NCBI RefSeq assembly: GCF_030028105.1
Contig: NC_092400.1
Span: 18,104,001-18,168,000 of the forward strand
Direction of reading: 5' to 3'
Length of the DNA: 64,000 bases
Source: Mobula birostris
Lineage: Eukaryota
The notes beneath the pieces were generated by a model, which did no database searches, was not told where the DNA came from, and was given only the letters and a program-made list of their open reading frames with translations. The position numbers and the translations under genes were made by a program. Shown piece after piece: positions 1 to 52,490 of the stretch. Position 1 is the stretch's first letter, and each line of letters begins with the position of its first letter.

Positions 1-1192
1 TGCAAAAAGGCAATGTTACAACAGTCATGGTGGAATTCAATATGCAGGTAGATGGGGAAAATCAAGTTGGTGCTGCTGGATTACTGGAGTGAGGGGGGAT
101 TTCTAGAGTGCCTATGAGATGGCTTTCTAGAGCAGCTGGCGGTTGAGCCAGCTAGAAGACCAGCTATTCTGGATTGAGTGTTGTGCAATGAACCAGAATT
201 GATGAGAAACCTTAAGGTAAAAGAAACCTCAGGGGCAAGTGATCATAATTTGATTGAATTCACCCGGAAACCTGAGAAGGAGAAGCTAAAGTCAGATCTA
301 TCAGTATTACAGTGGAGTAAATGGAATTACAGAAGCATGAGAGAGTTGTCCAGAATTGATTGGAAAAAAACACTGGCAGGGATGACAGCACAGCAGCAAT
401 GGCTGGAATTTCTGGAAGCTATTCTGAAGACTGAGGATATATATATATATATATATATCCCAGAGAAGAAGAAGTATTTTTAAAGGAAAGATGACAAATC
501 ATGGCTAACAAGAGAAGTCAAAGCCAACATGAAAGCCAAAGGGAGGGAATATAACAAAGTGAAAAGTAGTGGGAAATTGGAGATTTGGGGAGCTTTTAAA
601 AAGCAACAGAAGGCAATAAGAATATCACTAGAAAGGTAAGGATGGGATACGGAAGTAAACTAACCAATAATATTAAAGAGTTTAATACCAACAGTTCCTT
701 CAGATACATAAAGTGTAAAAGAGAGGCGAGAGTGGATATTGAACCATTGTAAATGATACTGGAGTGGTAGTAATGGGGGCCTATGAAATAGCAGAGAAAC
801 AGAGTAATTATTTGGCATCAAATTTTACTGTGGAAGACACTAGCAGGATGGTGGAGGCTCCAGGGACAGGGATCATGAAGTGTGTGAAGTTACCATGACC
901 AGAGAGATGGTTCTTGGAAAGCTGGAAGGTCTGAAGGTAGATAAGTTACCTAGACCAGATAGTGTACACCCCAGGGGTCTGAAAGAAGTGTCTGAAGAGA
1001 TTGTGGAGGTATTAGTCATGATCTTTCAAGAATCACTAGCTTCTGGAATGGTTCTGGAAGATGGGAAAATTGCCAATGTCACTCCACTCTTCAAGAAAGG
1101 TGAGAGGAAGAAAAAGGAAACTATAGGCCAGTTCATCTCACCTCAGGGTTGGGAAGATGTCAAGAGTTGATTATTAAAGATGAGGTCTCAGG
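1..1192 (+). mobile_element. CR1-clade LINE ORF2 fragment (end of AP endonuclease to start of RT), degenerate; part of duplicated unit 1
   Basis: ORFs 178..483 (GASDHNLIEF) and 880..1170 (LKVDKLPRPDSVHPRGLKE, IANVTPLFKKG) are CR1 ORF2 motifs broken by stops and frameshifts. Confidence 0.9.
436..458. repeat. (TA)n microsatellite
   Basis: gatatatatatatatatatatat; the paralogous site at ~15411 has only atatatacat. Confidence 0.9.
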
Positions 1193-2065
1193 TGGCTGGT
1201 AAATTGGTCCAGCAGATGCCCTCAGTGAAATGAGCAGAATATTATTCAAATCCATCCAATTAAATATATTTAATTGCAGTTCCATGCACTTTACTCACAG
1301 AGTACAGAGAGATAACAACATTCCCCGAGTAGGTTTTCTGTTACCACAAATATCTGCTGAATGGAAGTTAAAAGTGAGTTCTGCTCTCCTTCATGCAGCC
1401 TGGCCATGATTCCCCATGCTTCTGGGAGGAGAGGTAGCAACAGTCTCTCAGGCCACACTCCATAATGATGTTTCTAATGTGGTGAGGCAGTTCAGTCCAT
1501 ATTAAAGTCATTCGCTGCTGCACAGCTGCCCTACTCATAGTTCTCAATAACTAGCGTACCTCTGCATACAAGCATGCATGCACTTAAATCACAAATATAT
1601 ATGTGAGCACACACATGCACACACGACCGTTCATCACAAAGTTCTTCCACATTCTAGCCTCCCCAATCCAACTATCTGCATGTGGGCAATCGTGCACCTG
1701 TGCATATACGTGTTGAAGTTCAGTCAGGTATGTGTGAAGTAATGGGGTAAATTACACCAGAAATATTTTGATAGGATTCCAGGGACAAAAAAAAAAACAA
1801 TCTGCTATCTCAGTTTCTCACATGCCCTTGTCTGTAAAGACATTCTTCACTAGGAATGTTCGGTGTTCATTCCTTTCAACACTGCCCTCTTGTGTTGGAG
1901 TTCTTTGCTGCAAACAATGATCCAGAACAGTCATTTCCAGAGAGTTAGAGCAAGTAAATCGCTGTCGGTTGACATTCCCAGATGGAGCCGACCAGGTTAG
2001 CAAGATTACTTTAACTTTAGTATACCAGAGAGGTTTTTACAATACTCTGGTAACTTCGTTGACAC

Positions 2066-2310
2066 CGATAAGACATAGGAGCAGAATTGGGCTAGTCGGC
2101 CCATCAATTCTGCTCCATCATTCCATCATGATTGATTTATTATTCTTCTCAACCCCATTCTCCTGTCACCTCCCTATAACCTTCGATGTTCTGATTAATC
2201 AAGAACCCATCTGCCTCCACTTTAAAAACACCCAATGATTTCACCGCCAGTTATCTGTGGCAAAGAATTCACCCTCTGGTTACAGAAGTGCATACTCATC
2301 TCTATTGTAA
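2066..2310 (-). mobile_element. CR1 3'-end / CR1-tailed SINE-like fragment (paralogs at ~17055-17310, ~25775-26020)
   Basis: ataagacataggagcagaatt...ggcaaagaattc...ccctctgg matches the CR1 3' ends seen at 58480-58860. Confidence 0.75.
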
Positions 2311-2729
2311 ATGCTGATCATCCATCTTCAATACAGATAACCTCTTTTCATTCCAGATTTCAAATTTGGAAATAAATTCCCTAATTTTGAACCAGCGCTT
2401 CCGTTCCTATCTCCAGCTCACTCGGAGATTTTTTTTTAAGAATCCGGTTCCAGTACCATCAGGATATGACTGCATGCAGTTTGGCTCCATCCCAGCAACT
2501 GCTAACATCACTTTCCTCCTGACTGAAAGTCCACAGGTAGGGTTGTTCTTGGATGAATAAATTACTGCTGATTCTGATGGACAGTCCAGCAACCTTCTAC
2601 CACTATAACGAGTAGAAGCCAGCTACAAAAGAGACACGGAGGCTGAGTTCATCTGTGGAAGCGGCTGTTTATATGGAAAGAGGATATCTTAAATACCCAT
2701 ACACAACACAGAACACTTTCCTTTAAACC

Positions 2730-2806
2730 AGGGTTTCCAACATGTGGTCCACCACCCCCCGTTTAATTGTAAGGCCCCATGGCATACAAAAGAATGGGAA
2801 AACTGC
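2730..2806. mobile_element. Old ~80-bp hAT MITE relic in the 3' flank of the GPCR (also ~17730-17806, ~26450-26520)
   Basis: cagggtttccaac...ggcata(c)aaaa...gggaaaactg resembles the caggggttcccaac TIR family seen at 12506, 41681 and 63985. Confidence 0.55.
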
Positions 2807-3091
2807 TTGAAAGTAAGGAAAAGTTTCTTAAGGAATAAGCTCTGAAATAAACTAAGCTTCGTAGAGATAAGATGCAATTTCTTCTCTACATAAAGGGTAG
2901 TGTCTTACGGAATTTGTTCGTTAAGATCGACTTATCCCTCACAAAAATATTACCATTTGATCACTTTCTCCTTTCGGGCGCATTAATCAGCTTTGCTTTA
3001 AGGGCATCTAGTTCACGCAGAGCGGGAGCCATCAGAAAGCGGTTACAGAGCTCGTTTGCTGATCCAAAGTCCGGCGCTCTTTGGATGTTCC

Positions 3092-4033
3092 TTATACAGT
3101 GGTTGATCTGCAACAGTTTAAATTAAGACCAAGAGCTTTCTCCAAAGCATGTTGAAACTGCGAGGTTGAAAAATAGTAAATAATGGGATCGACCACACTG
3201 TTCAGATACGTTATAAACAACGTATTGTAAAATATATTCACTGCTGTGTGATACGACTTGCAGTCAGATGGACTTAGTTTAGTCACCAAAACCGCAACCA
3301 CAGCAACACTGGTGGGCAAGAAAAAAATGACAAAAACCGCAGCCACGGCTATCACAAGTTTCACAGTTCGCTTATATTTAGCCCGCATTCCAGCTTCCAT
3401 CTGCCGTAACCTCCAGATGATGGAGGACGTAGAGAACAGGATAACTGAAACTGGCAAAAGAAACTTAAAGAATATAAAAATAAAGTCAGTCCAAACTGTT
3501 GTGGGACTCAGAGCCTTGTTTATGCTGAAAGGCTCACAGTTTGTCAGGTTGTGTTGTTCGAAGAGATGTTTGTCTATCAGCAAGTGCAAGCAAATAGCCA
3601 CCGCTACAATCCACAGACCGCCTGCTATCATCACCGCACACCTTGTAGAGATCTTGTTTACCTTGTGGAGTGGATGGACCACCTTAAAATAACGATCGAT
3701 CGCAATAACCATGAGGAAAAAGATGCTGCCAATCCGGTTCAGGGAAATCATGAATATGTTCAGTCGACACAGTCCATCACCAAATCTCCAGTCCTTCCCT
3801 CGGATAAAATAAACAGCCCGAAAAGGTAGACAGCACATTAACAGAGTGTCCGCAATCATGAGATTCAGTGAATACACAATACTTGGTTTCCGCGACTTCA
3901 CATGAACACAAAAGATCCACAAAGCAATCGTATTTCCAGCAAGCCCGAGGATTAATGTGATAATAATTACGGGCGGGTTGTAGGATGAGTTAACATCTTC
4001 ACCAAAAGCACATTGCGGGGTCGAGTTCGCCAT
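3092..4033 (-). CDS. Hydroxycarboxylic acid receptor / oxoeicosanoid receptor-like class A GPCR, copy 1 (313 aa; C-tail shortened by a premature stop)
   Basis: Intronless 7TM ORF: GN (TM1), IAD..LPFR (TM2), CRL..NR.GS..DRY (TM3, Arg3.36), VVHP, ECL2 CEPF, FLP (TM6), YLNS..DPIIYYFS (TM7). Confidence 0.93.
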   Translation of the reverse strand: MANSTPQCAFGEDVNSSYNPPVIIITLILGLAGNTIALWIFCVHVKSRKPSIVYSLNLMIADTLLMCCLPFRAVYFIRGKDWRFGDGLCRLNIFMISLNRIGSIFFLMVIAIDRYFKVVHPLHKVNKISTRCAVMIAGGLWIVAVAICLHLLIDKHLFEQHNLTNCEPFSINKALSPTTVWTDFIFIFFKFLLPVSVILFSTSSIIWRLRQMEAGMRAKYKRTVKLVIAVAAVFVIFFLPTSVAVVAVLVTKLSPSDCKSYHTAVNIFYNTLFITYLNSVVDPIIYYFSTSQFQHALEKALGLNLNCCRSTTV

Positions 4034-4119
4034 TGTGCGAAAAAGTCAAGTTGTGTCCGGGGAGAGCAAACTCGATCAGAGACGAACAACATGTAAAGTT
4101 GATCTTCGAATGTGTTTGT

Positions 4120-4205
4120 TTCCCTGTGGGTGAAGTATATGGGCGGGGTGAAATAGTCAGAGCACCAATAAATTGTGCGATCGAATCATCAATTCCAGGA
4201 AAACT
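4120..4205 (-). promoter_or_regulatory. Candidate proximal promoter module: GC box, CCAAT, STAT/GAS site TTCCAGGAA
   Basis: gggcgggg 4141-4148, ccaat ~4165, ttccaggaa 4193-4201; conserved in all four paralogous upstream regions. Confidence 0.45.
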
Positions 4206-4334
4206 AGAAGCATCAGCGTTTAAATTAAGCAGCAAACAATGAAATATATTTAGCTTTCGTTGCCAGGCATAAAATTGTACAATACTTAGTTTTGCTGTTG
4301 AATGCTTGAATAATTTTATATTAAAATTAATGAG

Positions 4335-4570
4335 ACGTAATTTTATGCTGATTGGAGGAAAGTGTAGGGGGACGTCGGAGGCAGAGTTCTTTACGCAGCA
4401 AGGTTGGGTGCGAGGAACACGCTGTCAGGTTTGGTGGTAGAGGCAGATACATTAGGGGCATTTCAGAAACTGTTAGGCAGGCACATGGATGATAGGAAAA
4501 TGGAGGACTGTGCAGAAGGGAAAAGTCAGACTGATCTCAAAGTCGATTAAAATGTCGCCAACATTGTACT
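4335..4570 (+). mobile_element. CR1 3'-end fragment (paralogs ~19345-19520, ~19865-20090, ~28075-28295)
   Basis: gtggtagaggcagatacattaggggcatttcag...gcacatggatgataggaaaatggagg. Confidence 0.7.
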
Positions 4571-12505: not shown

Positions 12506-13708
12506 CAGGGGTCCCCAGGTACTGGGCCGCAAAGCATGCGCTACCAGGCCATGAGGAAACGATATGATTTGGCGATATGCGTCAGCTGCACCTTTCCTCA
12601 TTCCCTGTCACGCCCACTGTTGAGCCATTATGCACGCGAGGTCATTACCCGTGCGTCATCCATGTCAGCGCAGGAAGGAGATCAACTCCTCCAGCTTGTA
12701 AATGACGGCCGGCTGGAAAGTATGTTTGACATAACATCTCTGCCAGCATTCCGGATCAAAGTCAGGGCTAAGAATCCTGAGATAGTCAGGAAAGGACTGA
12801 AAACATTGCTTCCATTTCCAACATATCTCTGCAATGAATGCAACGAAAACTAAGTTGCAGAATAGACTGGACATAAGGATTTCCCTTCAAGTATCGCTGT
12901 CTCCCATCACCCCTCGATAGGACCGTCTTGTTGCAGGGAACAAGTATTCAGCCCAGGGCTCCCACTGAATCAGCGATATTAGTGTGTTGCAATGATTTTA
13001 TATGTTCATACGGGGAAAATATGTGCTGTGCATTTAATATCCAAACGTTACTTAAAATGTTATGATGCTATTGACTTATATTACCATATAACAATTACAG
13101 CATGGAAACGGGCCATCTCTGCCCTTCTAGTCCGTGCCGAACGTTTACTCTCACCTAGTCCCACCGACCTGCACTCAGCCCATAACCCTCCATTCCTTTC
13201 CTGTCCATATACATATCCAATTTTTCTTTAAAAGATAATATCGAACCTGTTTCTGCCACTTCCACTGGAAGTTCGTTCAACACTTACTTCAAGCTCCCCT
13301 GTCCTCCCCTGATAATTGACTGATCACTATATTCATGCGGGGAAAATATGCGCTGTGTGTTTAATATTAAATTCGTTAGAGAAACCTTTTAGAAACAAAA
13401 TTGAGTGTATTAGCCACTTATCACCTACATTCCGGTCATGATTAACAGACACCCCCCCCCCCCCGCCCGAACAGAATCGCCAAAAACCATTTGTAGAAAA
13501 AAATCAGCAAGTACACGCATGCGCACTGGTGCCCGCGCAAGGCTTCATGGTCATTGCAGTCTTTCTCGGGGTATACCCAACGTATTTGACTGCTACTCTT
13601 GTCCGTTAGCAAACATTCCCCCCCCCCCACCCCACCGGGTCGGCCGGTCCGCCAAAACATTGTCAATATTAAACCGGTCCGCAGTGCAAAACAGGTTTGG
13701 GACCCCTG
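12506..13708 (+). mobile_element. Non-autonomous hAT (Charlie/Buster type) DNA transposon
   Basis: TIRs caggggtcccca...tttgggacccctg; 8-bp TSD ctctaaag (12498-12505, 13709-13716); transposase C-terminal remnant LPAFRIKVRAKNPEIVRKGLKTLLPFPTYLC; empty sites at ~22150 and ~29978. Confidence 0.92.
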
Positions 13709-14017
13709 CTCTAAAGTTCGTAGCTTCTTTCACCGTCAGCTCTTTAACCATATTAGGAACAATTCCTCATTCCATTTCTTCACTCAGACTGACTCACTCC
13801 CTTCCCATCCAGGGAATGTGGTGCTAAACTGAAAGCAAGCCCAAATGGTCAGAGTGGAAGTGTGCCCTTACGTTCTCAGTAAGGCCACCAGTCTCAGGTG
13901 CCCTGTTCGCTGCCAGATCCAGAATGAATGTTGGCATCATTCACATTCCTACTCAAGGATAATAGCCTAGAAACAGCTACTGTGCATACGTTAAGGATTT
14001 GATCACAAGTTACAATA

Positions 14018-14984: not shown

Positions 14985-16162
14985 GCAAATGGCAATGTTA
15001 CAACAGTCATGGTGGAATTCAATATTCAGGTAGATTGGGTTGGTGCTGCTGGATTACTGGAGTGAGGGGGGATTTCTAGAGTGCCTATGAGATGGCTTTC
15101 TAGAGCAGCTGGTGGTTGAGCCAGCTAGAAGACCAGCTATTCTGGATTGAGTGTTGTGCAATGAACCAGAATTGATGAGAAACCTTAAGGTAAAAGAAAC
15201 CTCAGGGGCAAGTGATCATAATTTGATTGAATTCACCCTGAAACCTGAGAAGGAAAACCTAAAGTCAGATCTATCAGTATTACAGTGGAGTAAAGGGAAT
15301 TACAGAAGCATGAGAGAGTTGTCCAGAATTGATTGGGAAAAAAACACTGGCAGGGATGACAGCAGAGCAGCAATGGCTGGAATTTCTGGAAGCTATGCCG
15401 AAGACTGAGGATATATACATCCCAGAGAGGACGAAGTATTTTAAAGGAAAGATGACAAACCATGGCTAACAAGAGAAGTCAAAGCCAACATGAAAGCCAA
15501 AGAGAGGGGATATAATAGACTGAAAAGTAGTGGGAAATTAGAGGATTGAGGAGCCTTTAAAAAGCAACAGAAAGCAATAAGGATATCACTAGGAAGGTAA
15601 GGATGGAATACAGAAGCAAGCTAACCAATAATATTGAAGAGTTTAATACCAACAGTTTCTTAAGATACATAAAGTGTAAAAGAGAAGCGAGAGTGGATAT
15701 TGAACCATTGTAAATGATACTGGAGTGGTAGTAAAGGGTGGGGGGGGGTCTATGAAATAGCAGAGAAACAGAGTAATTATTTGGCATCCATTTTTACTGT
15801 GGAAGACACTAGCAGGATGGTGGAGGCTCCAGGGACAGGGGTCATGAAGTGTGTGAAGTTACCATGACCAGAGAGAAGGTTCTTGGAAAGCTGGAAGGTC
15901 TGAAGGTAGGTAAGTTACCTAGACCAGATAGTGTACACCCCAGGGGTCTGAAAGAAGTGTCTAAAGAGATTGTGGAGGTATTATTCATGATCTTTCAAGA
16001 ATCACTAGATTCTGGAATGATCCTGGAAGATGGGAAAATTGCCAATGTCACTCCACTCTTCAAGAAAGGTGAGAGGAAGAAAAAGGAAACTATAGACCAG
16101 TTCATCTCATCTCAGTGTTGGGAAGACGTCAAGAGTTGATTATTAAAGATGAGGTCTCAGGT
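14985..16162 (+). mobile_element. CR1 ORF2 fragment (duplicate of 1-1192)
   Basis: ORFs 15151..15408 and 15849..16139 nearly identical to 178..483 and 880..1170. Confidence 0.9.
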
Positions 16163-18031
16163 GGCTGGTAAATTGGTCCAGCAGATGCCCTCAGTGAAAT
16201 GAGCAGAATATTATTCAAATCCATCCAATTAAATATATTTAATTGCAGTTCCATGCACTTTGCTCACAGAGTACAGAGAGATAACAACATTCCCCGAGTA
16301 GGTTTTCTGTTACCACAAATATCTGCTGAATGGAAGTTAAAAGTGAGTTCTGCTCTCCTTCATGCAGCCTGGCCATGACTCCCCATGCTTCTGGGAGGAG
16401 AGGTAGCAACAGTCTCTCAGGCCACACTCCATAATGATGTTTCTAATGTGGTGAGGCAGTTCAGTCCATATTAAAGTCATTCGCTGCTGCACAGCTGCCG
16501 TACTCATAGTTTTCAATAACTAGCGTACCTCTGCATACAAGCATGCATGCACTTAAATCACAAACATATATGTGAGCACACACATGCACACACGACCGTG
16601 CATCACAAAGTTCTTCCACATTCCAGCCTCCCCAATCCAACTATCTGCATTGTGCAATCGTGCACGTATGCATATACATTTTGAAGCCCAGGCAGGTGTG
16701 TGTGAAATAGTGGAATAAAGGACACCAGAAATATTTTGATTGGATTCTGTGGGGGTGGGGGAGATGTGGAAGCAGGTTGTGGAAAGAACCTGCTATCTCA
16801 GTTTCTCACATACCCTTGTTTGTAAAGACATTCTTCACTAGGAATGTCGGTGTTCATTCCTTTCAACACTGCCCTCTTGTGTTGGAGTCCTTTGCTGCAA
16901 ACAATGATCCACATCAGTCATTTCCAGAGAGTTAGAGCAAGTAAATCGCTGTCGGTTGACATTCCCAGATGGAGCCGACCAGGTTAGCAAGATCATTTTA
17001 ACATTAGTATACCCGAGAGGTTTCTACAATACTCTGGTAACTTCATTGACACCCATAAGACATAGGAGCAGAACTGGGCTATTCGGCCCATCAATTCTGC
17101 TCCATCATTCCATCATGATTGATTTATTATTCTTCTCAACCCCATTCTCCTGTCACCTCCCCATAACCTTTGATGTTCTGATTAATCAAGAACCCATCAG
17201 CCTCCACTTTAAAACCACCCAATGATTTCACCGCCAGTCATCCGTGGCAAAGAATTCCACAGACTCTTCACCCTCTGGTTACAGAAGTGCATACTCATCT
17301 CTATTGTAAATGCTGATCATCCATCTTCAATACAGATAACCTCTTTTCATTCCAGATTTCAAATTTGGAAATAAATTCCCTAATTTTGAACCAGCGCTTC
17401 CGTTCCTATCTCCAGCTCACTCGGAGATGTTTTTTTTAAGAATCCGGTTCCAGTACCATCAGTATATGACTGCATGCAGTTTGCCTCCATCCCAGCAACT
17501 CCTAACATCACTTTCCTCCTGACTGAAAGTCCACAGGTAGGGTTGTTCTTGGATGAATAGATTACTGCTGATTCTGATGGACAGTCCAGCAACCTTCTAC
17601 CACTATAACGAGTAGAAGCCAGCTACAAAAGAGACACGGAGGCTGAATTCATCTGTGGAAGCAGTTGCTTATATGGAAAGAGGATATCTTAAATACCCAT
17701 ACACAACACAGAACACTTTCCTTTAAACCAGGGTTTCCAACATGTGGTCCACCACCCCCCGTTTAATTGTAAGGCCCCATGGCATACAAAAGAATGGGAA
17801 AACTGCTTGAAAGTAAGGAAAAGTTTCTTAAGGAATAAGCTCTGAAATAAACTAAGCTTCGTAGAGATAAGATGCAATTTCTTCTCTACATAAAGGGTAG
17901 TGTCTTACGGAACTTGTTCGTTAAGATCGATTTATCCCTCACAAAAATTTTAACATTTGATCACTTTCTCCTTTCGGGCGCATTAATCAGCTTTGCTTTG
18001 AGGGCATCTAGTTCACACAGAGCGGGAGCCA

Positions 18032-19039
18032 TCAGAAAGCGGTTACAGAGCTCGTTTGCTGATCCAAACTCTGGCGCCCTTGAGATGTTCCTTGTTCAGT
18101 GGCTGATCTGCGACAGCTTAAATTAAGAGGAAGCAGAGCTTTCTCCAAACCATCTTTAAACTGCGAAGTAGAAAAATAGTAAATAATGGGATCGACCACA
18201 CTGTTCAGATACGTTATAAACAACGTATTGTAAAAGATATTCGCTGCTATGTGATACGACTTGCAGTCAATTGACCTTCTCAGTTTAGTCACCAAAACCG
18301 CGACCGCAGCAACACTGCTGGGCAAGAAAAAAATGACAAAAACTGCAGCCACGGCTATCACAAGTTTCACAATTCGCTTATATTTAGCCCGCATTTCAGC
18401 TTCCATCTGCCGTAACCTCCAGATGATGGAGGACGTAGAGAATAGGATAACTGAAACTGGCAAAAGAAACTTAAAGAACATAAAAATAAAGCCAGTCCAA
18501 GCTGCTCTGAGACTCAGATCCTTCGTTATGCTGAAAGGCTCACAGTTTGTCACGTTGTGTTGTTCGAAGTGATGTTTGTCTGTCAGCAAGTGCAAGCAAA
18601 TAGCCACCGCTACAATCCACAGACTGCCTGCTATCTTCACCGCACACCTTGTAGAGATCTTGTTTACCTTGTGGAGTGGATGGACCACCTTAAAGTAACG
18701 ATCGATCGCTATAACCATGAGGAAAAAGACGCCGCCAGTTCGGTTCAGGGAAATCATGAATTTGTTCAGTCGACACAGTCCATCACCAAAACTCCAGTCC
18801 TTCCCTCGGATAAAATAAACAGCTCGAAAAGGTAGACAGCATAGTAACAGAGTGTCTGCAATCATGAGATTCAGTGAATATATAATACTTGGTTTCCGCG
18901 ACTTCACATGAACACAAAAGATCCACAAAGCAATCGTATTTCCAGCAAGCCCGAGGATGAATGTGATAATAATTATGGGCGGGTTGTAGGACGAGTTAAC
19001 ATCTTCAGCAGGAGCACATTGCGGGGTCGAGTTCGCCAT
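18032..19039 (-). CDS. Hydroxycarboxylic acid receptor / oxoeicosanoid receptor-like class A GPCR, copy 2 (335 aa)
   Basis: Full-length intronless 7TM ORF with Arg3.36, DRY, CEPF, DPIIY; N-terminal and ECL3 cysteines. Confidence 0.95.
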   Translation of the reverse strand: MANSTPQCAPAEDVNSSYNPPIIIITFILGLAGNTIALWIFCVHVKSRKPSIIYSLNLMIADTLLLCCLPFRAVYFIRGKDWSFGDGLCRLNKFMISLNRTGGVFFLMVIAIDRYFKVVHPLHKVNKISTRCAVKIAGSLWIVAVAICLHLLTDKHHFEQHNVTNCEPFSITKDLSLRAAWTGFIFMFFKFLLPVSVILFSTSSIIWRLRQMEAEMRAKYKRIVKLVIAVAAVFVIFFLPSSVAAVAVLVTKLRRSIDCKSYHIAANIFYNTLFITYLNSVVDPIIYYFSTSQFKDGLEKALLPLNLSCRRSATEQGTSQGRQSLDQQTSSVTAF

Positions 19040-19124
19040 TGTGCGAAAAAGTCAAGTTGTGTCCAGGGAGAGCAAACTCGATCAGAGACGAACAATCTGT
19101 AAAGTTGATCTTCGAATGAGTTTG

Positions 19125-19210
19125 TTCCCCTGTGGGTGGAGTATATGGGCGGGGTGAAATAGTCAGAGCACCAATAAATTGTGCGATCGAATCATCAATT
19201 CCAGGAAAAC
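19125..19210 (-). promoter_or_regulatory. Candidate proximal promoter module of copy 2 (GC box, CCAAT, GAS)
   Basis: gggcgggg ~19147, ccaat 19171, ttccaggaa 19199-19207. Confidence 0.45.
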
Positions 19211-19511
19211 TAGAAGCATCAGCGTTTAAATTAAGCTGCAAACAATGAAATATATTTAGCTTTCATTGCCAGGCATAAGATTGTACAATACATAGTTTTG
19301 CTGTTGAATGCATGAATAATTTTATATTAAAAATTAATGAGGGTGCGTAATTTTAAGCTGATAGGAGGGAAGTGTGGGGGTGGGGCAGAGTTTTATACGC
19401 AGCAAGGTTGGGTGCGAGGAACACGCTGCCAGGTTTGGTGGTAGAGGCAGATACATTAGGGGCATTTCAGAAACTGTTACGAAGGCACATGGATGATAGG
19501 AAAATGGAGGA

Positions 19512-19860
19512 TTATGTAGGGTTTGACTGCAGGGTCGAGTTCGCCATTGTGCGAAAAAGCGGTCACACAGTCAAGATGTTTCAGAGGGGAGCAAACTCAT
19601 TCGAAGATGAACAACCTTATAAGCTGATCTTCTTCGAATGAGTTTGTTCCCCTGTGGGTGGAGTATATGGGCGGAGTGAAATAGTCAGAGCACCAATAAG
19701 TTGTGCGATCGAATCATCAATTCCAGGAAAACTCGATGCATCAGCATTTAAATTAAGAAGCAGGGAATGAAATATGTTTGGATGTTATCACCAGGCTTAA
19801 AATAGTACAATATTTCGTTTTGGTGTTGAGTGCATGAGCAACTTTACATTAAAATTAATC
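19512..19860 (-). pseudogene. Stub of a lost GPCR copy: first 7 codons (MANSTLQ) plus a copy-3-type upstream region
   Basis: 19528-19547 tgcagggtcgagttcgccat is identical to 27734-27753; the following ~300 bp matches 27754-28070; reads MANSTLQSNPT* (19547-19512). Confidence 0.85.
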
Positions 19861-23769: not shown

Positions 23770-24922
23770 CATGCAAAAAGGCAATGTTACAACAGTCATG
23801 GAGGACTTCAATATGCAGGTAAGATTGGGAAAATCAAGTTGGTGCTGGATTACTGGAGGAGGAACTTCTAGAGTGTCGATGAGATGGCTTTTTAGAGCAG
23901 CTGGTGGTTGAGCCCACTAGACGGCCAGTTATTCTGGATTGAGTGTTGTACAATGAACTAGAATTGATTAGAGACCTTAAGGTTAAAGAAACCTCAGGGG
24001 ACAGTGATCATGATTTGATTGAATTCACCCTGAAATCTGAGAAGGGGAGGCTAAAGTCAGATGTATCAGTATTACAGTGGAGTTAACGGAATTACAGAAG
24101 CATGAGAGAGGAGTTGTCCAAAATTAATTGGAAAAGAATACTGGAAGGAATGACAGCAGAGCAGCAATGGCTGAAATTTCTGGAAACAATTCAGAAGACA
24201 GAAGATTTCTACATCCCAGAGAGGAAGAAGTATTTTAAAGGAAAGATGATAACCATGGCTAACAAGAGAAGTCAAAGCCAACATAAAAGCCAAAGAGAGG
24301 GAATAAAATACAGCAAAAATTAGCGGATTGGGAAGCTCTAAAAAGCAACAAAAGGCAAATAAAAATGTCACTAGGGATGGAATATGAACGTAAGCTAGCC
24401 AATAATATTAAAGCAGATACCAAAAGTTTCTTCAAATGCATAACATGTAAAAGAGAGGTGAGAGTGGATATTGGACCACTTGAAATTATGCTAGAGGGGT
24501 AGTGGTGGGGGATTATGAAATAGCAGATGAACAGCATAATGATTTTGCATCAGTTTTCACTCTGGAAGGCACTAGCAGGATGGTGGAAGTTCTAGTGTCA
24601 GGGGTGATGAAGTGTGTGAAGTTACCAGAACTAGAGAGAAGGTTCTTGAGAAACTGAAAGGTCTGAAGGTAGATATGTCACCTGGACCAGATGATATACA
24701 CCCGAGGGTTCTGAAAGACATGGATGAAGAGATTGTGGAGGTATTAGTCATGATCTTTCAAGAATCAATGGATTCTGTAATGGTTCTGGGAGATGGGAAA
24801 ATTGGAAATGTCACTCAACTCTTCAAGAAAAGAGAAAAGCAGAAGAAAGGAAACTATAGGCCAGTTCAGTCTGTTGGGAAGGTGTCAGAGTTGATTATTA
24901 AAGATGAGGTCTCAGGGTACTG
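23770..24922 (+). mobile_element. CR1 ORF2 fragment (unit 3)
   Basis: ORF 24612..24926 LKVDMSPGPDDIHPRVLKD...GNYRPV. Confidence 0.9.
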
Positions 24923-26745
24923 GTAAATTGGTCCAACAGATGCCTTCAGTGAAATGAGCAGAATATTATTCAAATCCATCTAATTGAATATACTTGTAGT
25001 TCCATGCACTTTACTCAGAGTACAGAGAGATAACAATATTCCTCGAGTAGATTTTCTGTTATCACAAATATCTGCTGAATGTAAGTTAAAAATGTGTTCT
25101 GCTCTCCTTCATGCAGCCTGGCCATGATTCCCCATGCTTCTGGGAGGAGAGGCAGCAACAGTCTCTCAGGCCACACTCCATAATGATGTTTCTAATGTGG
25201 TGAGGCAGTTCAGTCCATATTAAAGTCATTCACTGCTGCACAGCTGCCCTACTCATAGTTCTCAATAACTAGCATACTTCTGCATACAAGCATGCAGGCA
25301 CTTAAATCACAAACATATATGTGAGCACACACGACCGTGCATCACAAAGTTCTTCCACATTCTAGCTTCCCCAATCCAACTATCTGCATGTGGGCAATCG
25401 TGCACGTGTGCATATACGTGTTGAAGTTCAGTCAGGTATGTGTGAAATAATGGGATAAATTACACCAGAAATATTTTGATAGGATTCCAGGGACAAAAAA
25501 AAACAACCTGCTATCTCAGTTTCTCACATGCCCTTGTTTGTAAAGACATTCTTCACTAGGAATGTTCGGTGTTCATTCCTTTCAACACTGCCCTCTTGTG
25601 TTGGAGTTCTTTGCTGCAAACAATGATCCACAACAGTCATTTCCAGAGAGTTAGAGCAAGTAAATCGCTGTCAGTTGACATTCCTAGATGGAGCTGACCG
25701 GGTTAGCAAAATTATTTTAATGTTAGTATACCAGAGAGGTTCTTACAATACTCTGGTAACTTCATTGACACCCGTAAGACATAGGAGCAGAATTGGGCCA
25801 TTCGGCCCATCAATTCTGCTCCATCATTCCATCATGATTGATCTTTGTTCTCAGCCCCATTCTTCTGCCTCCTCTCCATAACCTTTGATGTCCTGATTAA
25901 TCAAGAACCCATCAGCCTCCTCTTTAAATATACCCTCCACAGCCATCTGTGGCAAAGAATTCTATTGATTCACCACCTTCTGGTTAAAGAATTATCTCCT
26001 CATCTCTATTGTAAATTCTGATCATCCTTCTTCAATACTGATAACCCTTTTTAATTCCAGATTTCAATTTTATTTACTGAAAATAAATTCTCTAATTTTG
26101 AACTGGCGCTTCAGTTCCTGTTTCCAGTTCACTAGAAGAGGCTTTTTTAGAAATCCAGTAACTTAGTTCCAGTACTATCAGGATATGGATGCATGCAGTT
26201 TGGCACCATCCTAGCAACTCCTAACATCACTTTCCTTCTGACTGAAAGTCCACAAGTAGGGTTGTTCTTGGATGAATAGATTACTGCAGATTCCTCCGGA
26301 CAGTTAGTCAACCTGAGAATGGCCCACTATAACGGGTGGAAGCTAGCTACAAACGTGACACAGAGGCTGAAGTCATCTGAGGAAGCAACTATTTATATGG
26401 AAAGCCGAAACTTAAATATTCATACACTATATCGACCCTTTCCTTTAAAGCAGAAGATGCCAATTTGGGGTCCACGGACCCCTCTTAATCGTAAGGCTCC
26501 GTGGCATAAAAAAGTTCTGCTTTAAAAAAAAGGAAGAGTTTCTTAATGAACAAGTTCTGAAATAAATTTACTTCTGTAGGTAAAGTACAATGCACTACTC
26601 GACATAAAGGGAACTGTATTACAGAACTTGTTCGTTAAGATCGACTTAACCCTCAACAAAACTTTAAGATTTCATCCATTTCTGCTTTGGGACGAAATTA
26701 TCAGCTTTCCTTTGAGGGCATCTAGTTCACGCGGACCGGGAACGA

Positions 26746-27753
26746 TCAGATTGTTGTTATAGAGCTCATTTGCTGATCCACAGTCTGCTCCTCTTTGGAT
26801 GTTTCTTGTTCAGTGGCTGATCTGGAAAAACTTAAATTAAGACGAACTAGAGCTTTCTCCAAAGCATGTTGAAACTGCGAAGTAGAAAAATAGTAAATAA
26901 TTGGATCGACCACACTGTTCAGATACGTTATAAACAACGTATTGTAAAAGATATTCGCTGCTGTGCGATACGACTTGCAGTCGGATAGACTTCTTAGTTT
27001 AGTCACCAAAACCGCAACCACAGCAACACTGGTGGGCAAGAAGCAAATGACAAAAACCGCAGCCACGGCTATCACAAGTTTCACAGTTCGCTTATATTTA
27101 GACCGCATTCCAACTTCCATCTGCCGTAATCTGCAGATGATGGAGGACGTAGAGAACAGGATAACTGAAACTGGCAAAAGAAACTTAAAGAATATAAAAA
27201 TAAAGTCAGTCCAAATTGCTGGGGGACTCAGAGCCTTGTTTATGCTGTAAGGCTCACAGTTTGTCACGTTGTGTTGTTCGAAGAGATGTTTGTCTATCAG
27301 CAAGTGCAAGCAAATAGCCAACGCTACAATCCACAGACCGCCTGCTATCATCACTGCACACCTTGTAGAGATCCTGTTTACCTTGTGGAGTGGATGGACC
27401 ACCTTAAAGTAACGATCGATCGCTATAACCATGAGGAAAAAGACGCTGCCAATCCGGTTCAGGGAAATCATGAATATGTTCAGTCGACACAGTCCATCAC
27501 CAAAAATCCAGTCCTTCCCTCGGATAAAATAATCAGCCCGAAAAGGTAGACAGCACACTAACAGAGTGTCCGCAATCAGGAGATTCAGTGAGTACACAAT
27601 ACTTGGTTTCCGCGACTTCACATGAACACAAAAGATCCACAAAGCAATCGTATTTCCAGCAAGCCCGAGGATGAATGTGATGATAATTACGGGCGGATTG
27701 TAGGACGAGTTAACATCTTTACCAGGAGCACATTGCAGGGTCGAGTTCGCCAT
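26746..27753 (-). CDS. Hydroxycarboxylic acid receptor / oxoeicosanoid receptor-like class A GPCR, copy 3 (335 aa)
   Basis: Full-length intronless 7TM ORF: LPFRADY, NRIGSVFFL..DRY, CEPY, CFLP, YLNSVVDPIIYYFS. Confidence 0.95.
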   Translation of the reverse strand: MANSTLQCAPGKDVNSSYNPPVIIITFILGLAGNTIALWIFCVHVKSRKPSIVYSLNLLIADTLLVCCLPFRADYFIRGKDWIFGDGLCRLNIFMISLNRIGSVFFLMVIAIDRYFKVVHPLHKVNRISTRCAVMIAGGLWIVALAICLHLLIDKHLFEQHNVTNCEPYSINKALSPPAIWTDFIFIFFKFLLPVSVILFSTSSIICRLRQMEVGMRSKYKRTVKLVIAVAAVFVICFLPTSVAVVAVLVTKLRSLSDCKSYRTAANIFYNTLFITYLNSVVDPIIYYFSTSQFQHALEKALVRLNLSFSRSATEQETSKEEQTVDQQMSSITTI

Positions 27754-27854
27754 TGTGCGAAAAAGCGGTCACACAGTCAAGATGTTTCAGAGGGGAGCAC
27801 ACTCATTCGAAGCTGAACAACCTTATAAACTGGCCTTTTTCGAATGAGTTTGTT

Positions 27855-27940
27855 CCCCTGTGGGTGGAGTATATGGGCGGAGTGAAATAGTCAGAGCACC
27901 AATAAGTTGTGCGTTCAAATCACCAAGTTCCAGGAAAACT
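27855..27940 (-). promoter_or_regulatory. Candidate proximal promoter module of copy 3 (GC box, CCAAT, GAS)
   Basis: gggcggag ~27875, ccaat ~27899, ttccaggaa 27928-27936. Confidence 0.45.
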
Positions 27941-30696
27941 CGAAGCATCAGCATTTAAGTTGAGCAGCAAACAATGAAATAGATTTTGATTTTATCGCCA
28001 GGCTTAAAATTGTACAATACTTAGTTTTGTTGTTGAGTGCATGAATAATTTTACATTAAAATTAATCATGGGGTATAATTTTAAGCTGATTGCAGGGAGG
28101 GCAAGTTTTTTACGCAGCGAGGTTGGGTGCGAGGAACACGCTGTCAGGTTTGGTGGTAGAGGCAGATACATTAGGGGCATTTCAGAAACTGTTAGCTAGG
28201 CACAAGGATGATAGGAAAATGGAGGACTCTGCAGGAGGGAAGGGTTAGTCTGATCTCAAAGTAGGATAAATCTCAACACACAAGGTACTGTAATGATATA
28301 CAGACCAAAAATAAGAGCAGTGTTGTAATATTAACCACCTCAAAGATCATTTCACTTCGTTATTAAAGTCATTCTTGAAAAACTTCCTGACGACAATTGA
28401 AATGGAAAACGGAGAAAACTCCCAGCATGTCAACTTTGGAAAGCAAACAGAGCTTATGATTCCGTATGTAGGTCTTTCATTTTTCCGAGCAGGTTTTGAG
28501 TGCCTTCTGAAATGGATGCGCCTCTCTGAACATCACCTGATATCAGTGAACGTGATGTATTTAAACAACTGTTTATTATTTTAAGGAATTGTAATGCAGA
28601 AGTCCACCTACTTCCTCTAGTTTGGGGAAGTGATTTAGTGTAAATAACATGGTTGTTGAACAGAATGGTTTAAAAATATCTGAGTGGATGAAGATCTATC
28701 CTGGTGTGCAATGGAGATGCAGCGGGACATGATGGGATCAGGGAAGAGGAAACAGTCAAAGCAGCAGAGGGCTTCAGAGGTATCACAGGCATCTGTGATC
28801 CCTTGGCTTGTAGGGAAGTAGTAGAAACAAACTGTGAGTTATAAAACTAATGCTGGAGGATAAATAGAGTCTTCTAAGGAAATATGTCAGGGATTCCTAT
28901 GAGAAATGAAAGCCTGATGCTCAGTGGTGGGTCGTGATCCTGTTGGAAGTATGAGAAAGTGTCCAGGAGATGACATTCAGGAGAGAGTAATTTGCATGAG
29001 CACTGACACACTGCTCCTTGTCAGCAGGTTTGACGACAATCCAGGAGTCATTCTTATTGAAGAGTTGCAAATTCAGGTTCACTTGGTTAGGGTGAGCAAA
29101 TTGAAATAATCATTGTTGAGTTGGCAGAGAGTGATGAATGGATCTGGAGAAGGAAAGGACTTTGAAGAGGGATCCAGTTTTGTACAGGATTCTGGAAATG
29201 GGGATCCTCAGTGTTGAGGGCACCTGACCATGGGGACTCAGTCTTTTTAAGCACTTCTCAAGAGGGTCTGGAATGAAGCATCACTCAAGTTATACATGGG
29301 AGAAACAGGACTTAGGGATAGATCATTGCTGAATATATCTCCAGCAGTGTGAATGCTCAGAATGTTACTGTACAAACTGAGTGGAGGGAGAGTGTGAGGG
29401 AGAGGGATCAGCAGCGACACAGGCTCTTCATCTACCTCAGATGCGAGGTTATGGATGCACTCAAAATAGTACATCAGAAATGAATGCAGAACCAGGCCAT
29501 AGAGATCCCTGAACATCATTCCTGATTCATTCAGATTTTCACCTCAACACTTGCTGCACATTGGCACAAATGGCAGAACCTCTGCCTCACTGCAGCAGAA
29601 CTCTGGGTTCACCACATATGATGTTGGATTCCTTTGGGTGCTCTAGTGTCCTTCCCAAACATCAAACACATTCAGGTCAGCAGTTGAATGACCTACTGTA
29701 AATTGCTTCTAGTGTTAGGTTGGTGGTAGAATATGGGAGGAAATAAACAAGATGTGGAGAGAATTTTTAAAATTTGGAATCAATTAACATTTTGGTAAAT
29801 GGTTGCTTGACAAACACTGGAAAAATAATGGGCCAACTCACTTGGTTTTCCCTCTTTGTGTCTTGCTTATAGAATTAAGGATATGTGTATTCAAACCCCA
29901 AGAATTTTAAGTTGTTAGTTGCCATAAACCACACTGAACATTCAACTTGTCACGCACCTGGAGCGGCGGCAAGCCTCACTCTTAACTGTGCAGCTTCATT
30001 CAACCATATTAGGAACAATTCCTCTTTCACCTCCTTCACTCAGACTGACTCACACCTTCCCATTCAGGGAAAGTGGTGCTAAACTGAAAGCAAGCCGAAT
30101 TAGTTGAAGTGGAAGTGTGCCCTTACGTTTTCAGTAAGGCCACCAATCTCAGGTGCCCTGTTAGCCGCAAGATCCAGAATGAAGGTTGGCATCATTCGTT
30201 TTCCCAATCACTGAAAATAGCATATTGTGCATATGTCAAAAATTTGATCACAAGTTATAATACACCCAGTGGCCATTTTATAAGGTTAATCCTCGACATA
30301 TAAAGAGGCCTGGGATAGATGGTCCCATGCTGCTGTAGCCCATTCGTCTCAATGTTCGACATGTTGAGCATTCAAAGATGCACTTCTGCACAACACTGTT
30401 GTAACACATGGTTATTGGAATTCCTGTCAGTCAGCTAGAACCATTCCAGCCACTCTCCTCTGACCTCCCCGAATAACAAAGAATTTTCATCAACAGAACT
30501 GCTTCTCACTGAATGTTTTTGGCTTCTTGCACCAATCTCTGTAACCTCTAGAGACTACTGTGAGTGAAAATCCCAAAGGTCAGCAGTTTCTGATATACTC
30601 AGTCCACCCTATCTGGCACCAACAATCATTCTACAGTCAAAGTCACTTAGATCACATTTCTTCCCTATTCTAATGTTTGGTTCAAGCACAATTGAA

Positions 30697-33182: not shown

Positions 33183-34417
33183 AGTAGTAGTAGTAGTCAT
33201 ACTTTATTGATCCCGGGGGAAATTGGTTTTCGTTACAGTTGCACCATAAATAATAAGTAGTAATAGAACCATAAATATTTAAATAGTAATATGTAAATTA
33301 TGCCAGTAAATTAGGAAATAAGTCCAGGACCAGTCTATTGGCTCAGGGTGTCTGACCCTCCAAGGGAGGAGCTGTAAAGTTTGATGGCCACAGGCAGGAA
33401 TGACTTCCTCTGTGCTGCATCTCAGAGGAATGAGTCTCTGGCTGCATGTACTCCTGTGTCCACCCAGTACATTATGTAGTGGATGGGAGACATTGACCAA
33501 GATGGCATGCAACTTAGACAGCATCCTCTTTTTCAGACACCACCGTCAGAGAGTCCAGTTCCATCCCCACAACATCACTGGCCTTACCAATGAGTTTGTT
33601 GATTCTGTTGGTGTCTGCTACCCTCAGCCTGCTGCCCCAGCACACAACAGCAAACATGATCGCACTGGCCAGCACAGACTCGTAGAACATCCTCAGCATC
33701 GTCCGGCAGACGTTAAAGGACCTCAGTCTCTTCAGGAAATAGAGGCGGCTCTGACCCTTCTAGTAGACAGCCTCAGTGTTCTTAGACCAGTCCAGTTTAT
33801 TGTCAATTCGTATCCCCAGGTATTTGTAATCCTCCACCATGCCCACACTGACCCCCTGGATGGAAACAGGGGTCACCGGTACCTTAGCTCTCCTCAGGTC
33901 TACCACCAGCTCCTTAGTCTTTTTCACATTAAGCTGCAGATAATTCTGCTCACACCATGTGACAAAGTTTCCTACCGTAGCCCTGTATTCAACCTCATCT
34001 CCCCTGCTGATGCATCCAACTATGGCAGAGTCATCCGAAAACTTCTGATGACAAGACTCTGTGCAGTAGTTGAAGTCCGATGTATAAATGGTGAAGAGAA
34101 AGGGAGACAAGACAGTCCCCTGTAGGGCCCTAGTGCTGCTGATCACTCTGTCGGACACACAGTGTTGCAAGCACACGTACTGTGGTCTGCCAGTCAGGTA
34201 ATCAAGAATCCATGACACCAGGAAAGCATCCACCTGCATCGCTGTCAGCTTCTCCCCCAGCAGAGCAGGGTGGATGGTGTTGAATGCACTGGAGAAGTCA
34301 AAAAACATGATCCTCACAGTGCTCACTGGCTTGTCCAGGTGGGCGCAGACACAGTTCAGCAGGTAGATGATGGCATCCTCAACTCCTAGTCGGGGCTGGT
34401 AGGCGAACTGGAGGGGA
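33183..34417 (-). mobile_element. Rex1/Babar-clade LINE, 5'-truncated RT and 3' end with (TAC)n tail
   Basis: ORF 33760..34326 STVRIMFFDFSSAFNTI, QGTVLSPFLFTIYTSDF, KFSDD, LNVKKTKELVVD. Confidence 0.92.
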
Positions 34418-35699: not shown

Positions 35700-36125
35700 A
35701 ACTACTACTACTACGTCGACTCTGGCCTAGGGGGCTGGTGTTGGGCACAATGACGGACTCTCCACTTCTCCCTCTTCCTCATCAGTGTGCTCAGTTCATC
35801 TACATCAGCTGCGCCACAGTCTTCTAGGAGCATGTTGACTACAGTCTTGGGAGGGCGCCCAAGGTTCATCCTCCCATGCTTGGGCTCCCATATGATGACT
35901 AGGCTGGTAGGTAGCTTGGGGTGGTGTAGACAGTGCCCTGCTAGTTGCAGTCTCGTCGCCTTGATTTTAGTGGAGAGCATCGGTAGGTCATCATAGAGCT
36001 CGACGTTCATCATGTGCTGTTGCCAACTCACGTCAACAGCCACCCGAAGCATTTGCATATAGCAACCATCCAGAGACTTTCACATAGTCTTGGTGAGTGT
36101 CCACTTCTCGCATCCGTCATACCAA
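35700..36125 (-). mobile_element. RTE-clade LINE 3' end with (TAG)n tail
   Basis: YDGCEKWTLTK..LDGCYMQMLRVAVDVSWQQH..RLQLAGHC..GRPPKT. Confidence 0.85.
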
Positions 36126-36351
36126 AGATGGTTAAAAACTATAGGTTTAAGGTTAGGGAGAAGAGATTTCACACTGATCCGCTGATGCTCACCCTTCCTG
36201 ACTGCAGCCAGTTTGTAACAGACAGGCAGTTTCAGGTAAAACCCTACTGTCACAAACAGTACGATGGTGCAGCCAACCCAACCTCCACTGGGGAGTTCAC
36301 ACGTTCCCCACCCCCCCAACCCCTCCCCCGTGATTCTATAAGATTCATCAG

Positions 36352-49235: not shown

Positions 49236-49319
49236 AAAAATGATACCGTATCCATTAAATAGGGGCCATGGACAATTCTGATTTGATGGAGATGGACATG
49301 AAAGCACAGAGGAACATCT

Positions 49320-49812: not shown

Positions 49813-50179
49813 CAAAATAACCAATGGTTTGGGTAAAGAGGTGGGACAAAATGATTAAATAAAAGAAATTCCATGCTGCGGTTCTGGATAGCACACTAGT
49901 ATTAGCTAAGTGTTTAGCTGTTAAAATGCTTCATATTTATTTTGGAATATTGATAAAAAGGCACAAAAAAGGCATATCTACAGATTAATATTGCAGATTT
50001 TTAACTGATATTTCTCTACTTTTTTAATTCTAGTTTTCCTCTTTGAGTTGAGGATGACTCATTTCTGTTCCGCTTAATTGGGTTCCGGGATAGTTGAAGA
50101 GCCCCACCATGGGAAATTCAAACTTTCCCACAGACAAAAAAGCAGGTGTTAAATGATGAGTTGTTTAGGATGCTCTGTG

Positions 50180-51443: not shown

Positions 51444-52490
51444 ATGGATAATGAAACACATGTATGCCCTTTAGTCAAGGAAATTTATTCAGCCTACAAT
51501 CCACCGATACTTATTTTAACATTTATCTTTGGATTAACTGGAAATATGATTGCCTTGTGGATTTTCTGTTTTCACGTTAAATCCTGGAGACCAAACACCG
51601 TCTATTCACTGTGCCTGGCGATTGCCGACACTCTGCTGATCTGCTGTCTGCCATTTCGAGCCGATTACTACATACGTGGGAAGAACTGGATTTTTGGTGA
51701 TGTTGTGTGCCGTCTGAAGATATACCTGATGTTTCTGAACCGGACAGAGAGCGTTGTTTTCCTTACAGTTATGGCACTTGATCGCTATTTCAAAGTGATC
51801 CATCCTCACCATAACGTGAACAAGATCTCTACAAGGACTGCAGTGAAGGTATCACTGGTTCTCTGGTTTCTAACAATGTTGATTTGTTTGCACTTTCTGG
51901 TAGAACCTCGTACCTTCACACATCACAATGTAACTCACTGTGAGCCATTTAACATAACTCAGCCTCTAAGCCCCACAGCATTTTGGACTAATAATATTTT
52001 CATTGTTTTCAAGTTTATTTTACCAGCTTCAGTGATCCTGTTCTCCACATGCTGTATTATCTGGAGGCTGAAGCAGATGAAATCTGAAATGAGGGTTAAA
52101 TATGAACGAGCTATGAGGCTTGTGATAGTTGTGGCGGTAGTGTTTCTCATCTGCTTCCTACCGAGCAATATTGCTGTAATCGCCGTTTTAATTTCAAGCA
52201 ATTTAAAAGACTGTAAGTTATTTGACATCTGCGCTCAGATATTCTACAATACACTGTGCATAACCTATTTGAACAGTGTGCTGGACCCGGTTATTTACTA
52301 CTTCTCAAGTTCAACATTTAAAGAAACTTTGAAGAAAGCTCTTATTTCTCATAATATCAGATTATTCAGATCAGGAACAAAGCAACCATTACATCCAAAG
52401 CAAGAAATCCAACAAGCTGTTGAACCTAAAAGGTCTTCAAGTTGCAATACCTTTAATCATTTTCAAACGGAGTCAACAGGGAGTATATGA
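51444..52490 (+). CDS. Hydroxycarboxylic acid receptor / oxoeicosanoid receptor-like class A GPCR, divergent copy 4 (348 aa)
   Basis: Intronless 7TM ORF: ALWIFCFHVKSWRPNTVY, LPFRADYY, NRTESVVFL..DRY, CEPF, CFLPS, YLNSVLDPVIYYFSS. Confidence 0.96.
   Translation: MDNETHVCPLVKEIYSAYNPPILILTFIFGLTGNMIALWIFCFHVKSWRPNTVYSLCLAIADTLLICCLPFRADYYIRGKNWIFGDVVCRLKIYLMFLNRTESVVFLTVMALDRYFKVIHPHHNVNKISTRTAVKVSLVLWFLTMLICLHFLVEPRTFTHHNVTHCEPFNITQPLSPTAFWTNNIFIVFKFILPASVILFSTCCIIWRLKQMKSEMRVKYERAMRLVIVVAVVFLICFLPSNIAVIAVLISSNLKDCKLFDICAQIFYNTLCITYLNSVLDPVIYYFSSSTFKETLKKALISHNIRLFRSGTKQPLHPKQEIQQAVEPKRSSSCNTFNHFQTESTGSI

What the first reader, a model, noticed from the sequence alone, without database searches (positions are those of the whole stretch)
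3032..3109. Premature stop in GPCR copy 1 coincides with a newly created class I PDZ-type C-terminus
Seen: copies 2 and 3 read AGA TCA GCC ACT GAA CAA (RSATEQ), while copy 1 reads AGA TCA ACC ACT GTA TAA (RSTTV*). Three substitutions within four codons give Thr at -2, Val at 0 and the stop. The old tail (GTSKERRTLDQQTSSVTAF*) is still open to the ancestral TGA at 3032. Copies 2 and 3 end in T-A-F and T-T-I, which also fit S/T-x-hydrophobic. Known: that is the class I PDZ ligand pattern, and distal Ser/Thr clusters are typical GRK/arrestin sites. Inference: copy 1 may be a functional short-tailed variant that lost 20 residues of phospho-sites but kept a scaffold-binding end, rather than a pseudogene.
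Basis: partly seen in the sequence, partly recalled or inferred. Interest (0 to 1): 0.7.

Follow-up and report, generated by a model that had tools for sequence, protein, structure and literature searches.

The report
Short-tailed devil-ray metabolite receptor copy
One copy in a large cluster of metabolite-sensing receptor genes of manta and devil rays carries a real, inherited early stop that trims its tail; it likely still works as a receptor, while the scaffold-binding-like end it now shows is likely a by-product, because sister copies with the same stop lack it.

Summary
Observation confirmed. Copy 1 (window 3092-4033, minus) is a 313-aa hydroxycarboxylic acid receptor (HCAR)-like GPCR in a tandem array (27 matches) near DENR; neighbouring paralogs are annotated as Mobula birostris. 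The stop is no error: raw-data contigs of two organisms carry it, and M. hypostoma has an intact 313-aa sister protein. All seven helices, helix 8 and the acid-binding Arg remain, so a working short-tailed receptor is likely; expression is not shown. The PDZ idea is weakened. Val and the stop are shared by a pseudogene paralog and by the M. hypostoma protein, which both end S-A-T-V without Thr at -2, so the three changes were not one event. Other copies lost their tails at six or more other places without a class I end, and only 3 of 15 Mobula members fit the motif. In its favour: T-x-[L/V/F] ends all 10 skate, sawfish and electric-ray members of the clade, and a second organism also has S-T-T-V. 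Verdict: ordinary birth-and-death tail turnover, with about a one-in-five chance of selected re-creation of a PDZ ligand.

The parts
3092..4033 (-). Copy 1: uninterrupted ORF for a 313-aa HCAR-like class A GPCR ending RSTTV
   Evidence: 7tm_1 E=9.9e-49; HCAR2 E=6e-70; model pLDDT 79, 7 helices plus helix 8
3092..3094 (-). Early stop TAA (CAA in long copies); shared with pseudogene L016, organism B and, by length and end, M. hypostoma P0091
3095..3097 (-). GTA, Val at position 0 (GAA in long copies); always found together with the stop
3101..3103 (-). ACC, Thr at -2; Ala in L016 and P0091, Thr in organism B contig 8; Ser at this site in three long paralogs
3110..3115 (-). Cys307-Cys308, possible lipid-anchor site close to the new end (inferred); Cys308 shared with L016 and organism B contig 8
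3134..3163 (-). Helix 8 (residues 291-300), complete; the stop lies 13 residues after it
3032..3091 (-). Former tail, now 3' untranslated: 19 codons (7 Ser/Thr) plus the old TGA; three differences from organism B, all changing the old reading
3130..3133 (-). Site of a 3-base deletion after helix 8 that marks the short-tail lineage (copy 1, L016, P0091)
3270..3273 (-). Site of a second 3-base deletion, in extracellular loop 3, shared by the same lineage
18032..19039 (-). Copy 2, 335 aa, ends SVTAF; same 3' flank type as copy 1
26746..27753 (-). Copy 3, 335 aa, ends SITTI; its M. hypostoma sister P0002 is frameshifted in the tail
51444..52490 (+). Copy 4, 348 aa, older subfamily of the same array

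Best explanation
Copy 1 is an HCAR-like receptor gene whose early stop is shared by two ray organisms, and it likely encodes a working short-tailed receptor whose S-T-T-V end is likely an unselected by-product of a loosely constrained tail. Shown: the stop and Val occur together in copy 1, pseudogene L016 and M. hypostoma P0091; Thr at -2 is in only some of these; the 7TM core is whole. Inferred order: in a Mobula ancestor one tandem copy gained two 3-base deletions and GAA CAA to GTA TAA (two changes two bases apart, possibly one event), duplicated, one daughter decayed (L016), and Ala to Thr came later by a single transition; gene conversion among paralogs likely shuffles these sites. Inferred working: like HCARs it would bind a small organic acid through Arg100 and couple to Gi/o; loss of 7 of 10 tail Ser/Thr would slow or change desensitisation.
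For: Stop real and shared. P0001 and P0091 are sisters on a tail-trimmed tree (SH-aLRT 88, quick tree). Core differs at 13 of 294 residues (4.4%), fourth lowest of 11 Mobula sister pairs (2.0-10.8%) and like the conserved pair P0028/P0131 (4.1%). 17 differences over 313 aa against 31 expected under neutral drift at 4.8% DNA divergence, P=0.003; both frames staying open has P about 0.03. C8, C89, R100, DRY, C166, C258, DPxxY kept in both species, whereas L016 has R100W, N278K and two stops. Thr not tied to the stop. Class I end in only 3 of 15 Mobula and 15 of 29 stingray members; truncated ends QISH, ASEQ, PGTS, TVDL, TVDQ, TVGQ lack it. With x-T-V* in place, 2 of 9 single-base changes of GCC give Ser/Thr, and three long paralogs have Ser there.
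Against: Purifying selection is only moderately shown: at 3% divergence (inside the 2.7-7.9% interval) P rises to 0.31; gene conversion lowers coding divergence; only intact genes get annotated. Copy 1's private changes are 5 replacement to 2 silent, the same ratio as the pseudogene's 30 to 12, and pN/pS against paralogs is 0.49-0.90. For a selected motif: all 10 non-myliobatiform members end T-x-[L/V/F], and organism B also has S-T-T-V, so P0091's Ala could be a secondary loss by conversion.
Confidence: 0.56

Rival explanations
1. Compensatory re-creation: the ancestral batoid receptor docks on a PDZ scaffold through T-x-[L/V/F]; the stop removed that end and Ala to Thr was then selected to restore docking on a tail without the distal phospho-sites.
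For: T at -2 and L/V/F at 0 in 10 of 10 skate, sawfish and electric-ray members while -1 varies (P, H, R); S-T-T-V in two organisms about 5% apart; Thr at this site in 1 of 44 clade proteins, the stop-bearing one; only 2.9% of cut points fit; P0091's R308 and A311 both equal the long-paralog state, as a short conversion tract would.
Against: Intact M. hypostoma protein ends S-A-T-V; organism B has contigs with both Thr and Ala at this site behind the same deletion; 12 of 15 Mobula members have no class I end; at least six other truncated ends persist without one; two Cys sit 5-6 residues from the end, and the -2 Thr could be phosphorylated (inference).
Confidence: 0.2
2. Young or silent pseudogene: the copy is no longer expressed or functional and simply has not yet collected a lesion in the core.
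For: The array is full of dying copies (L003 R90*, L011, L016, L018, L020, L021, L022); the closest stop-bearing paralog L016 is dead; private changes do not show purifying selection.
Against: Frame open and key residues kept in two species; core divergence no higher than in intact neighbours; about 480 bases upstream of the ATG still align with copy 2 within a 93.6% block; a stop in what reads as the same exon as the old stop should not trigger decay (established knowledge, exon structure not tested).
Confidence: 0.2
3. Stop-codon read-through gives both a 313-aa and a 333-aa form, keeping the old tail open.
For: Old frame open in copy 1 and L016.
Against: 79% chance of staying open without selection; it is also open in a pseudogene; the three differences from organism B all change residues; TAA followed by G is a strong stop (recalled).
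Confidence: 0.03
4. Sequencing or assembly error.
For: None beyond the repetitive array.
Against: Same letters in a second locus, in raw-data contigs of two organisms and in another species' protein.
Confidence: 0.01

Closest known systems
Human HCAR1/HCAR2/HCAR3 cluster between DENR and KNTC1
   Same: Best solved relatives (E about 1e-67 to 1e-70, next family 1e-33); Arg at the HCAR2 R111 site and the Cys pairs kept; DENR exon 49 kb from the array's end; paralogs differ in tail length (HCAR3 +24 aa, colobine -11 aa; PMC13237431 passages).
   Different: Ray-specific expansion to some 20 or more copies with many pseudogenes; not one-to-one with HCAR1/2/3; batoid subfamily ends in T-x-[L/V/F]; ligand unknown.
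Stop-gain variants that create predicted PDZ-binding ends (PMC3983204)
   Same: A nonsense change exposes an S/T-x-hydrophobic end; 279 of 26,864 human stop variants were predicted to do so (passages).
   Different: Here the stop is shared between species, needed two further substitutions, and replaces an older motif of the same class.
C-tail-truncated GPCRs with altered desensitisation (CXCR4 WHIM, GPR34, CCR4, CCR6)
   Same: Stop after helix 8 removes distal Ser/Thr and leaves the core (search listing and abstracts; passages).
   Different: Those are disease mutations in single-copy genes; this is an inherited paralog among many long-tailed ones, and no effect was measured.

Membership tests
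HCAR family (class A GPCR) | 7TM rhodopsin-family fold | tested here: met
   7tm_1 33-286; model with 7 helices and helix 8, pLDDT 79
HCAR family (class A GPCR) | Closest solved relatives are HCARs | tested here: met
   top 21 rows all HCAR1/2/3; next E=3.8e-33. No OXER1 or GPR31 chain appeared among the 60 rows shown, so these were not compared directly
HCAR family (class A GPCR) | Acid-binding Arg (HCAR2 R111) and Cys C100/C177, C18-19/C266 | tested here: met
   R100, C89, C166, C8, C258 by alignment; roles from PMC8638184 passages
HCAR family (class A GPCR) | Synteny with DENR | tested here: met
   DENR exon at G000:C36 17.764 Mb, E=3.7e-24 to PDB 5vyc
HCAR family (class A GPCR) | Synteny with KNTC1 on the other side | not tested
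   no search made
HCAR family (class A GPCR) | Activation by hydroxycarboxylic acids, Gi/o coupling | not testable with these tools
   needs assay
Class I PDZ ligand | X-S/T-X-[F,I,L,M,V,W] at the free C-terminus | tested here: met
   S-T-T-V; definition from PMC3653948; last residues unstructured in the model
Class I PDZ ligand | Motif conserved in orthologs | tested here: inconclusive
   Thr in organism B contig 8, Ala in M. hypostoma P0091 and L016
Class I PDZ ligand | Measured binding to a PDZ domain | not testable with these tools
   needs peptide assay
Pseudogene | Disabling lesion in the folded core | tested here: not met
   no stop or frameshift in 313 codons in two species; key residues kept
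Pseudogene | Neutral sequence evolution | tested here: inconclusive
   cross-species count favours constraint; private-change ratio does not
Pseudogene | No transcript | tested here: inconclusive
   no RNA holder on record

The most novel reading that the evidence does not exclude
A GPCR paralog lost a PDZ-binding end conserved across batoids through a nonsense change, then rebuilt a class I ligand 20 residues upstream, giving manta and devil rays a scaffold-anchored receptor stripped of its distal phospho-sites, with docking and non-docking forms both still present in a sister species.
Probability: 0.2. Interest if true: 0.55.

Novelty: new member of a known kind. Interest (0 to 1): 0.27.

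Why it matters
As it stands it is a neat but ordinary case of tail turnover in a birth-and-death GPCR array. If the rival holds, it is a natural, stepwise record (S-A-T-E-Q, S-A-T-V*, S-T-T-V*) of a short linear motif being lost and rebuilt, testable with three peptides. Separately, the ray HCAR expansion and its conserved T-x-[L/V/F] end turned up in none of my literature searches.

Tried and rejected
Expression: no RNA holder listed; one run guessed to be RNA (X10) gave two contigs over the site, both long-tailed; this is a blank, not evidence. Runs X9 and X11 (other organisms) gave only contigs of long or non-deleted type at the site and X1 none; absence is not shown. Single-sequence fold was unusable (pLDDT 47), replaced by an alignment-based one. 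Search for short protein fragments with the C-terminal region found no candidate. Private-substitution test had no power. The careful tree did not finish; the quick tree is used. Li et al. 2012 on HCAR2 tail domains was not held; only a citing passage was seen. Searches for PDZ with HCAR1, for de novo PDZ motif gain and for a Mobula divergence date gave nothing usable in the listings; no date is given. 3-HAO matches lie on another contig; its use as an OXER1 marker is recalled and carries little weight. No complex prediction was sent: a T-x-V peptide with a PDZ domain would pass by likeness to solved structures. Two look-ups of earlier findings were empty.

Full report
Observation. The minus strand at 3109-3092 reads AGA TCA ACC ACT GTA TAA; copies 2 and 3 read AGA TCA GCC ACT GAA CAA; the old frame runs 19 more residues to TGA at 3034-3032.

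What the gene is. All four long window ORFs of this kind are 7tm_1. The top 21 solved relatives of copy 1 are HCAR1/2/3 (E 6e-70 to 4e-64), the next family scores 4e-33. Arg100 aligns with HCAR2 R111, and the Cys residues match. The own genome has 27 matches at E<=1e-40, all on C36 between 17.81 and 18.28 Mb, and a DENR exon lies about 49 kb from one end; DENR flanks the primate HCAR cluster (PMC13237431, passages). HCA1 orthologs are reported in cartilaginous fishes (PMC6532841, passage). Paralogs on a contig of the same length as C36 are annotated as Mobula birostris HCAR-like proteins. An alignment-based model (78 sequences, pLDDT 79) shows seven helices and helix 8 at 291-300, then a low-confidence tail; the stop is 13 residues after helix 8.

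The stop is real and inherited. Run X2 (organism A, possibly the assembly's source) has a contig identical over 3040-3161. Run X6 (organism B) has a 632-base contig, depth 12, with 14 differences in 291 bases; from the depth sums its four differences in 3040-3140 are 3069, 3070, 3072 and 3117, so it keeps TAA, Val and Thr and would end S-C-C-R-S-T-T-V. M. hypostoma XP_062890664.1 (P0091) is 313 aa, shares both one-residue deletions, and ends C-R-R-S-A-T-V. It is sister to copy 1 on a tree of 104 tail-trimmed proteins (SH-aLRT 88, quick tree). A second M. birostris locus, L016 (G000:C36:18052962-18053756), has the same GTA TAA and deletions but GCC, ending S-A-T-V; it is a pseudogene with two internal stops, R100W, N278K and no match to the first 68 codons. 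None of the 29 stingray proteins in the clade has this stop.

So the three changes are not one event. Val and the stop always travel together (2 bases apart). Thr at -2 is in copy 1 and organism B contig 8; Ala is in L016, P0091 and a second short organism B contig (record 10, depth 4.95, 3100-3140, which carries the deletion but does not reach the stop). Whether organism B's two forms are alleles or paralogs is not settled; the depths (9.7 shared upstream, 5 and 12 on the branches) would fit alleles. The simplest order is stop plus Val first, Thr later. The copies are mosaic: P0091 shares I104 and T179 with copy 1 but L260, I281 and A311 with L016, and copy 1's 3' flank shares letters with copy 2. 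P0091's R308 and A311 both equal the long-paralog state, so its Ala may be a later loss by conversion. This ambiguity keeps the PDZ reading alive.

Is it functional? The core differs from P0091 at 13 of 294 residues (4.4%), fourth lowest of 11 sister pairs. In a neutral simulation (assumed kappa 3, indels 7% of substitutions) at 4.8% divergence, 31 residue differences are expected against 17 seen (P=0.003) and both frames stay open in 3% of runs; at 3% divergence these become P=0.31 and 10%. The 95% interval of the divergence is 2.7-7.9%, and it was measured on the Thr-bearing contig, not on P0091's gene. Against: pN/pS to nine paralogs is 0.49-0.90, and copy 1's private changes (5 replacement, 2 silent) have the same ratio as the pseudogene's (30, 12); intact paralogs look alike (10:2, 8:2, 9:2, 18:7, 15:8), so the test cannot separate them. 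Expression was not shown. I put a working receptor at about 75%.

Is the PDZ end meaningful? S-T-T-V fits the class I definition (PMC3653948, passage). In the 54-row clade, all 10 skate, sawfish and electric-ray proteins end T-x-[L/V/F] with a variable -1, which looks like a conserved ligand; 15 of 29 stingray and 3 of 15 Mobula proteins fit (these are records, not independent events, and annotated proteins only). Most Mobula copies run on past the old stop (VRVN, VGVN, SRSA), and six other truncated ends (QISH, ASEQ, PGTS, TVDL, TVDQ, TVGQ) have no class I motif. One of them, ending two codons further on, is seen in two Hemitrygon proteins and in M. birostris pseudogene L011, so short tails persist without rescue. 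A random cut fits in 2.9% of places (40 of 1358), 19-35% for at least one of seven events. Once x-T-V* exists, 2 of 9 single-base changes of GCC give Ser or Thr, and three long paralogs carry Ser there with no terminal role. Stop-created PDZ-like ends are known: 279 of 26,864 human stop variants (PMC3983204, passages).

Phospho-sites and read-through. The stop removes 7 Ser/Thr and leaves 3 after helix 8. HCAR2 tail residues 329-343 restrain activity (cited in PMC8638184, passage; the primary paper was not held), but human HCAR1 recruits little or no beta-arrestin (10.1101/2025.05.02.651384, passages), so the effect on the ray receptor is open. The open old tail is expected by chance (79% at 5% divergence), and its three differences from organism B all change residues.

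Verdict. A real, Mobula-shared nonsense change in one member of a birth-and-death HCAR array; likely a working short-tailed receptor; PDZ docking possible but unselected on present evidence (about 20% for selected re-creation). No paper in the held library names Mobula together with these receptors (0 papers); subscription journals and supplements were not seen. Interest 0.27.

Noticed in passing
G000:C36:17813590-18281637: HCAR-like tandem array with 27 matches in several subfamilies, also expanded in stingrays; mammals have one to three genes. Not found in my literature searches.
   Followed up: partly
proteins P0018, P0019, P0020, P0024, P0027, P0118-P0121, P0127: S-[V/E/A]-T-x-[L/V/F] end in 10 of 10 skate, sawfish and electric-ray members: a candidate ancestral class I PDZ ligand, mostly lost in Mobula.
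   Followed up: partly
L011 (G000:C36:18088838-18092668); P0102, P0114: Older short-tail lineage ending RPA[S/T]EQ*, annotated as proteins in Hemitrygon and broken in M. birostris.
   Followed up: partly
window 26746-27753; P0002: Copy 3's M. hypostoma sister has a tail frameshift (ends FFQISH), losing T-T-I.
   Followed up: partly
L002, L003, L004: Recent near-identical duplicates of copy 2 (96-98%) with different tails; L003 has a stop at codon 90.
   Followed up: partly
L023:3757-7001: The 5' third of pseudogene L016 is missing and unrelated, repeat-like DNA (matching window 12541-13715 and 49233-49816) lies upstream.
   Followed up: partly
window 5-4515, 14987-19519, 23772-28634: Duplication units of about 4.5-5 kb around copies 1-3 (93.6% and 84.5% identity).
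   Followed up: partly
window 33760-34308, 36080-37708, 54089-54586: ORFs that read like fragments of LINE-type retrotransposon reverse transcriptase and endonuclease (by eye, recalled; no search run).
   Followed up: no
window 2767 and 2141 (minus strand): Poly(A)-signal-like hexamers downstream of copy 1.
   Followed up: no
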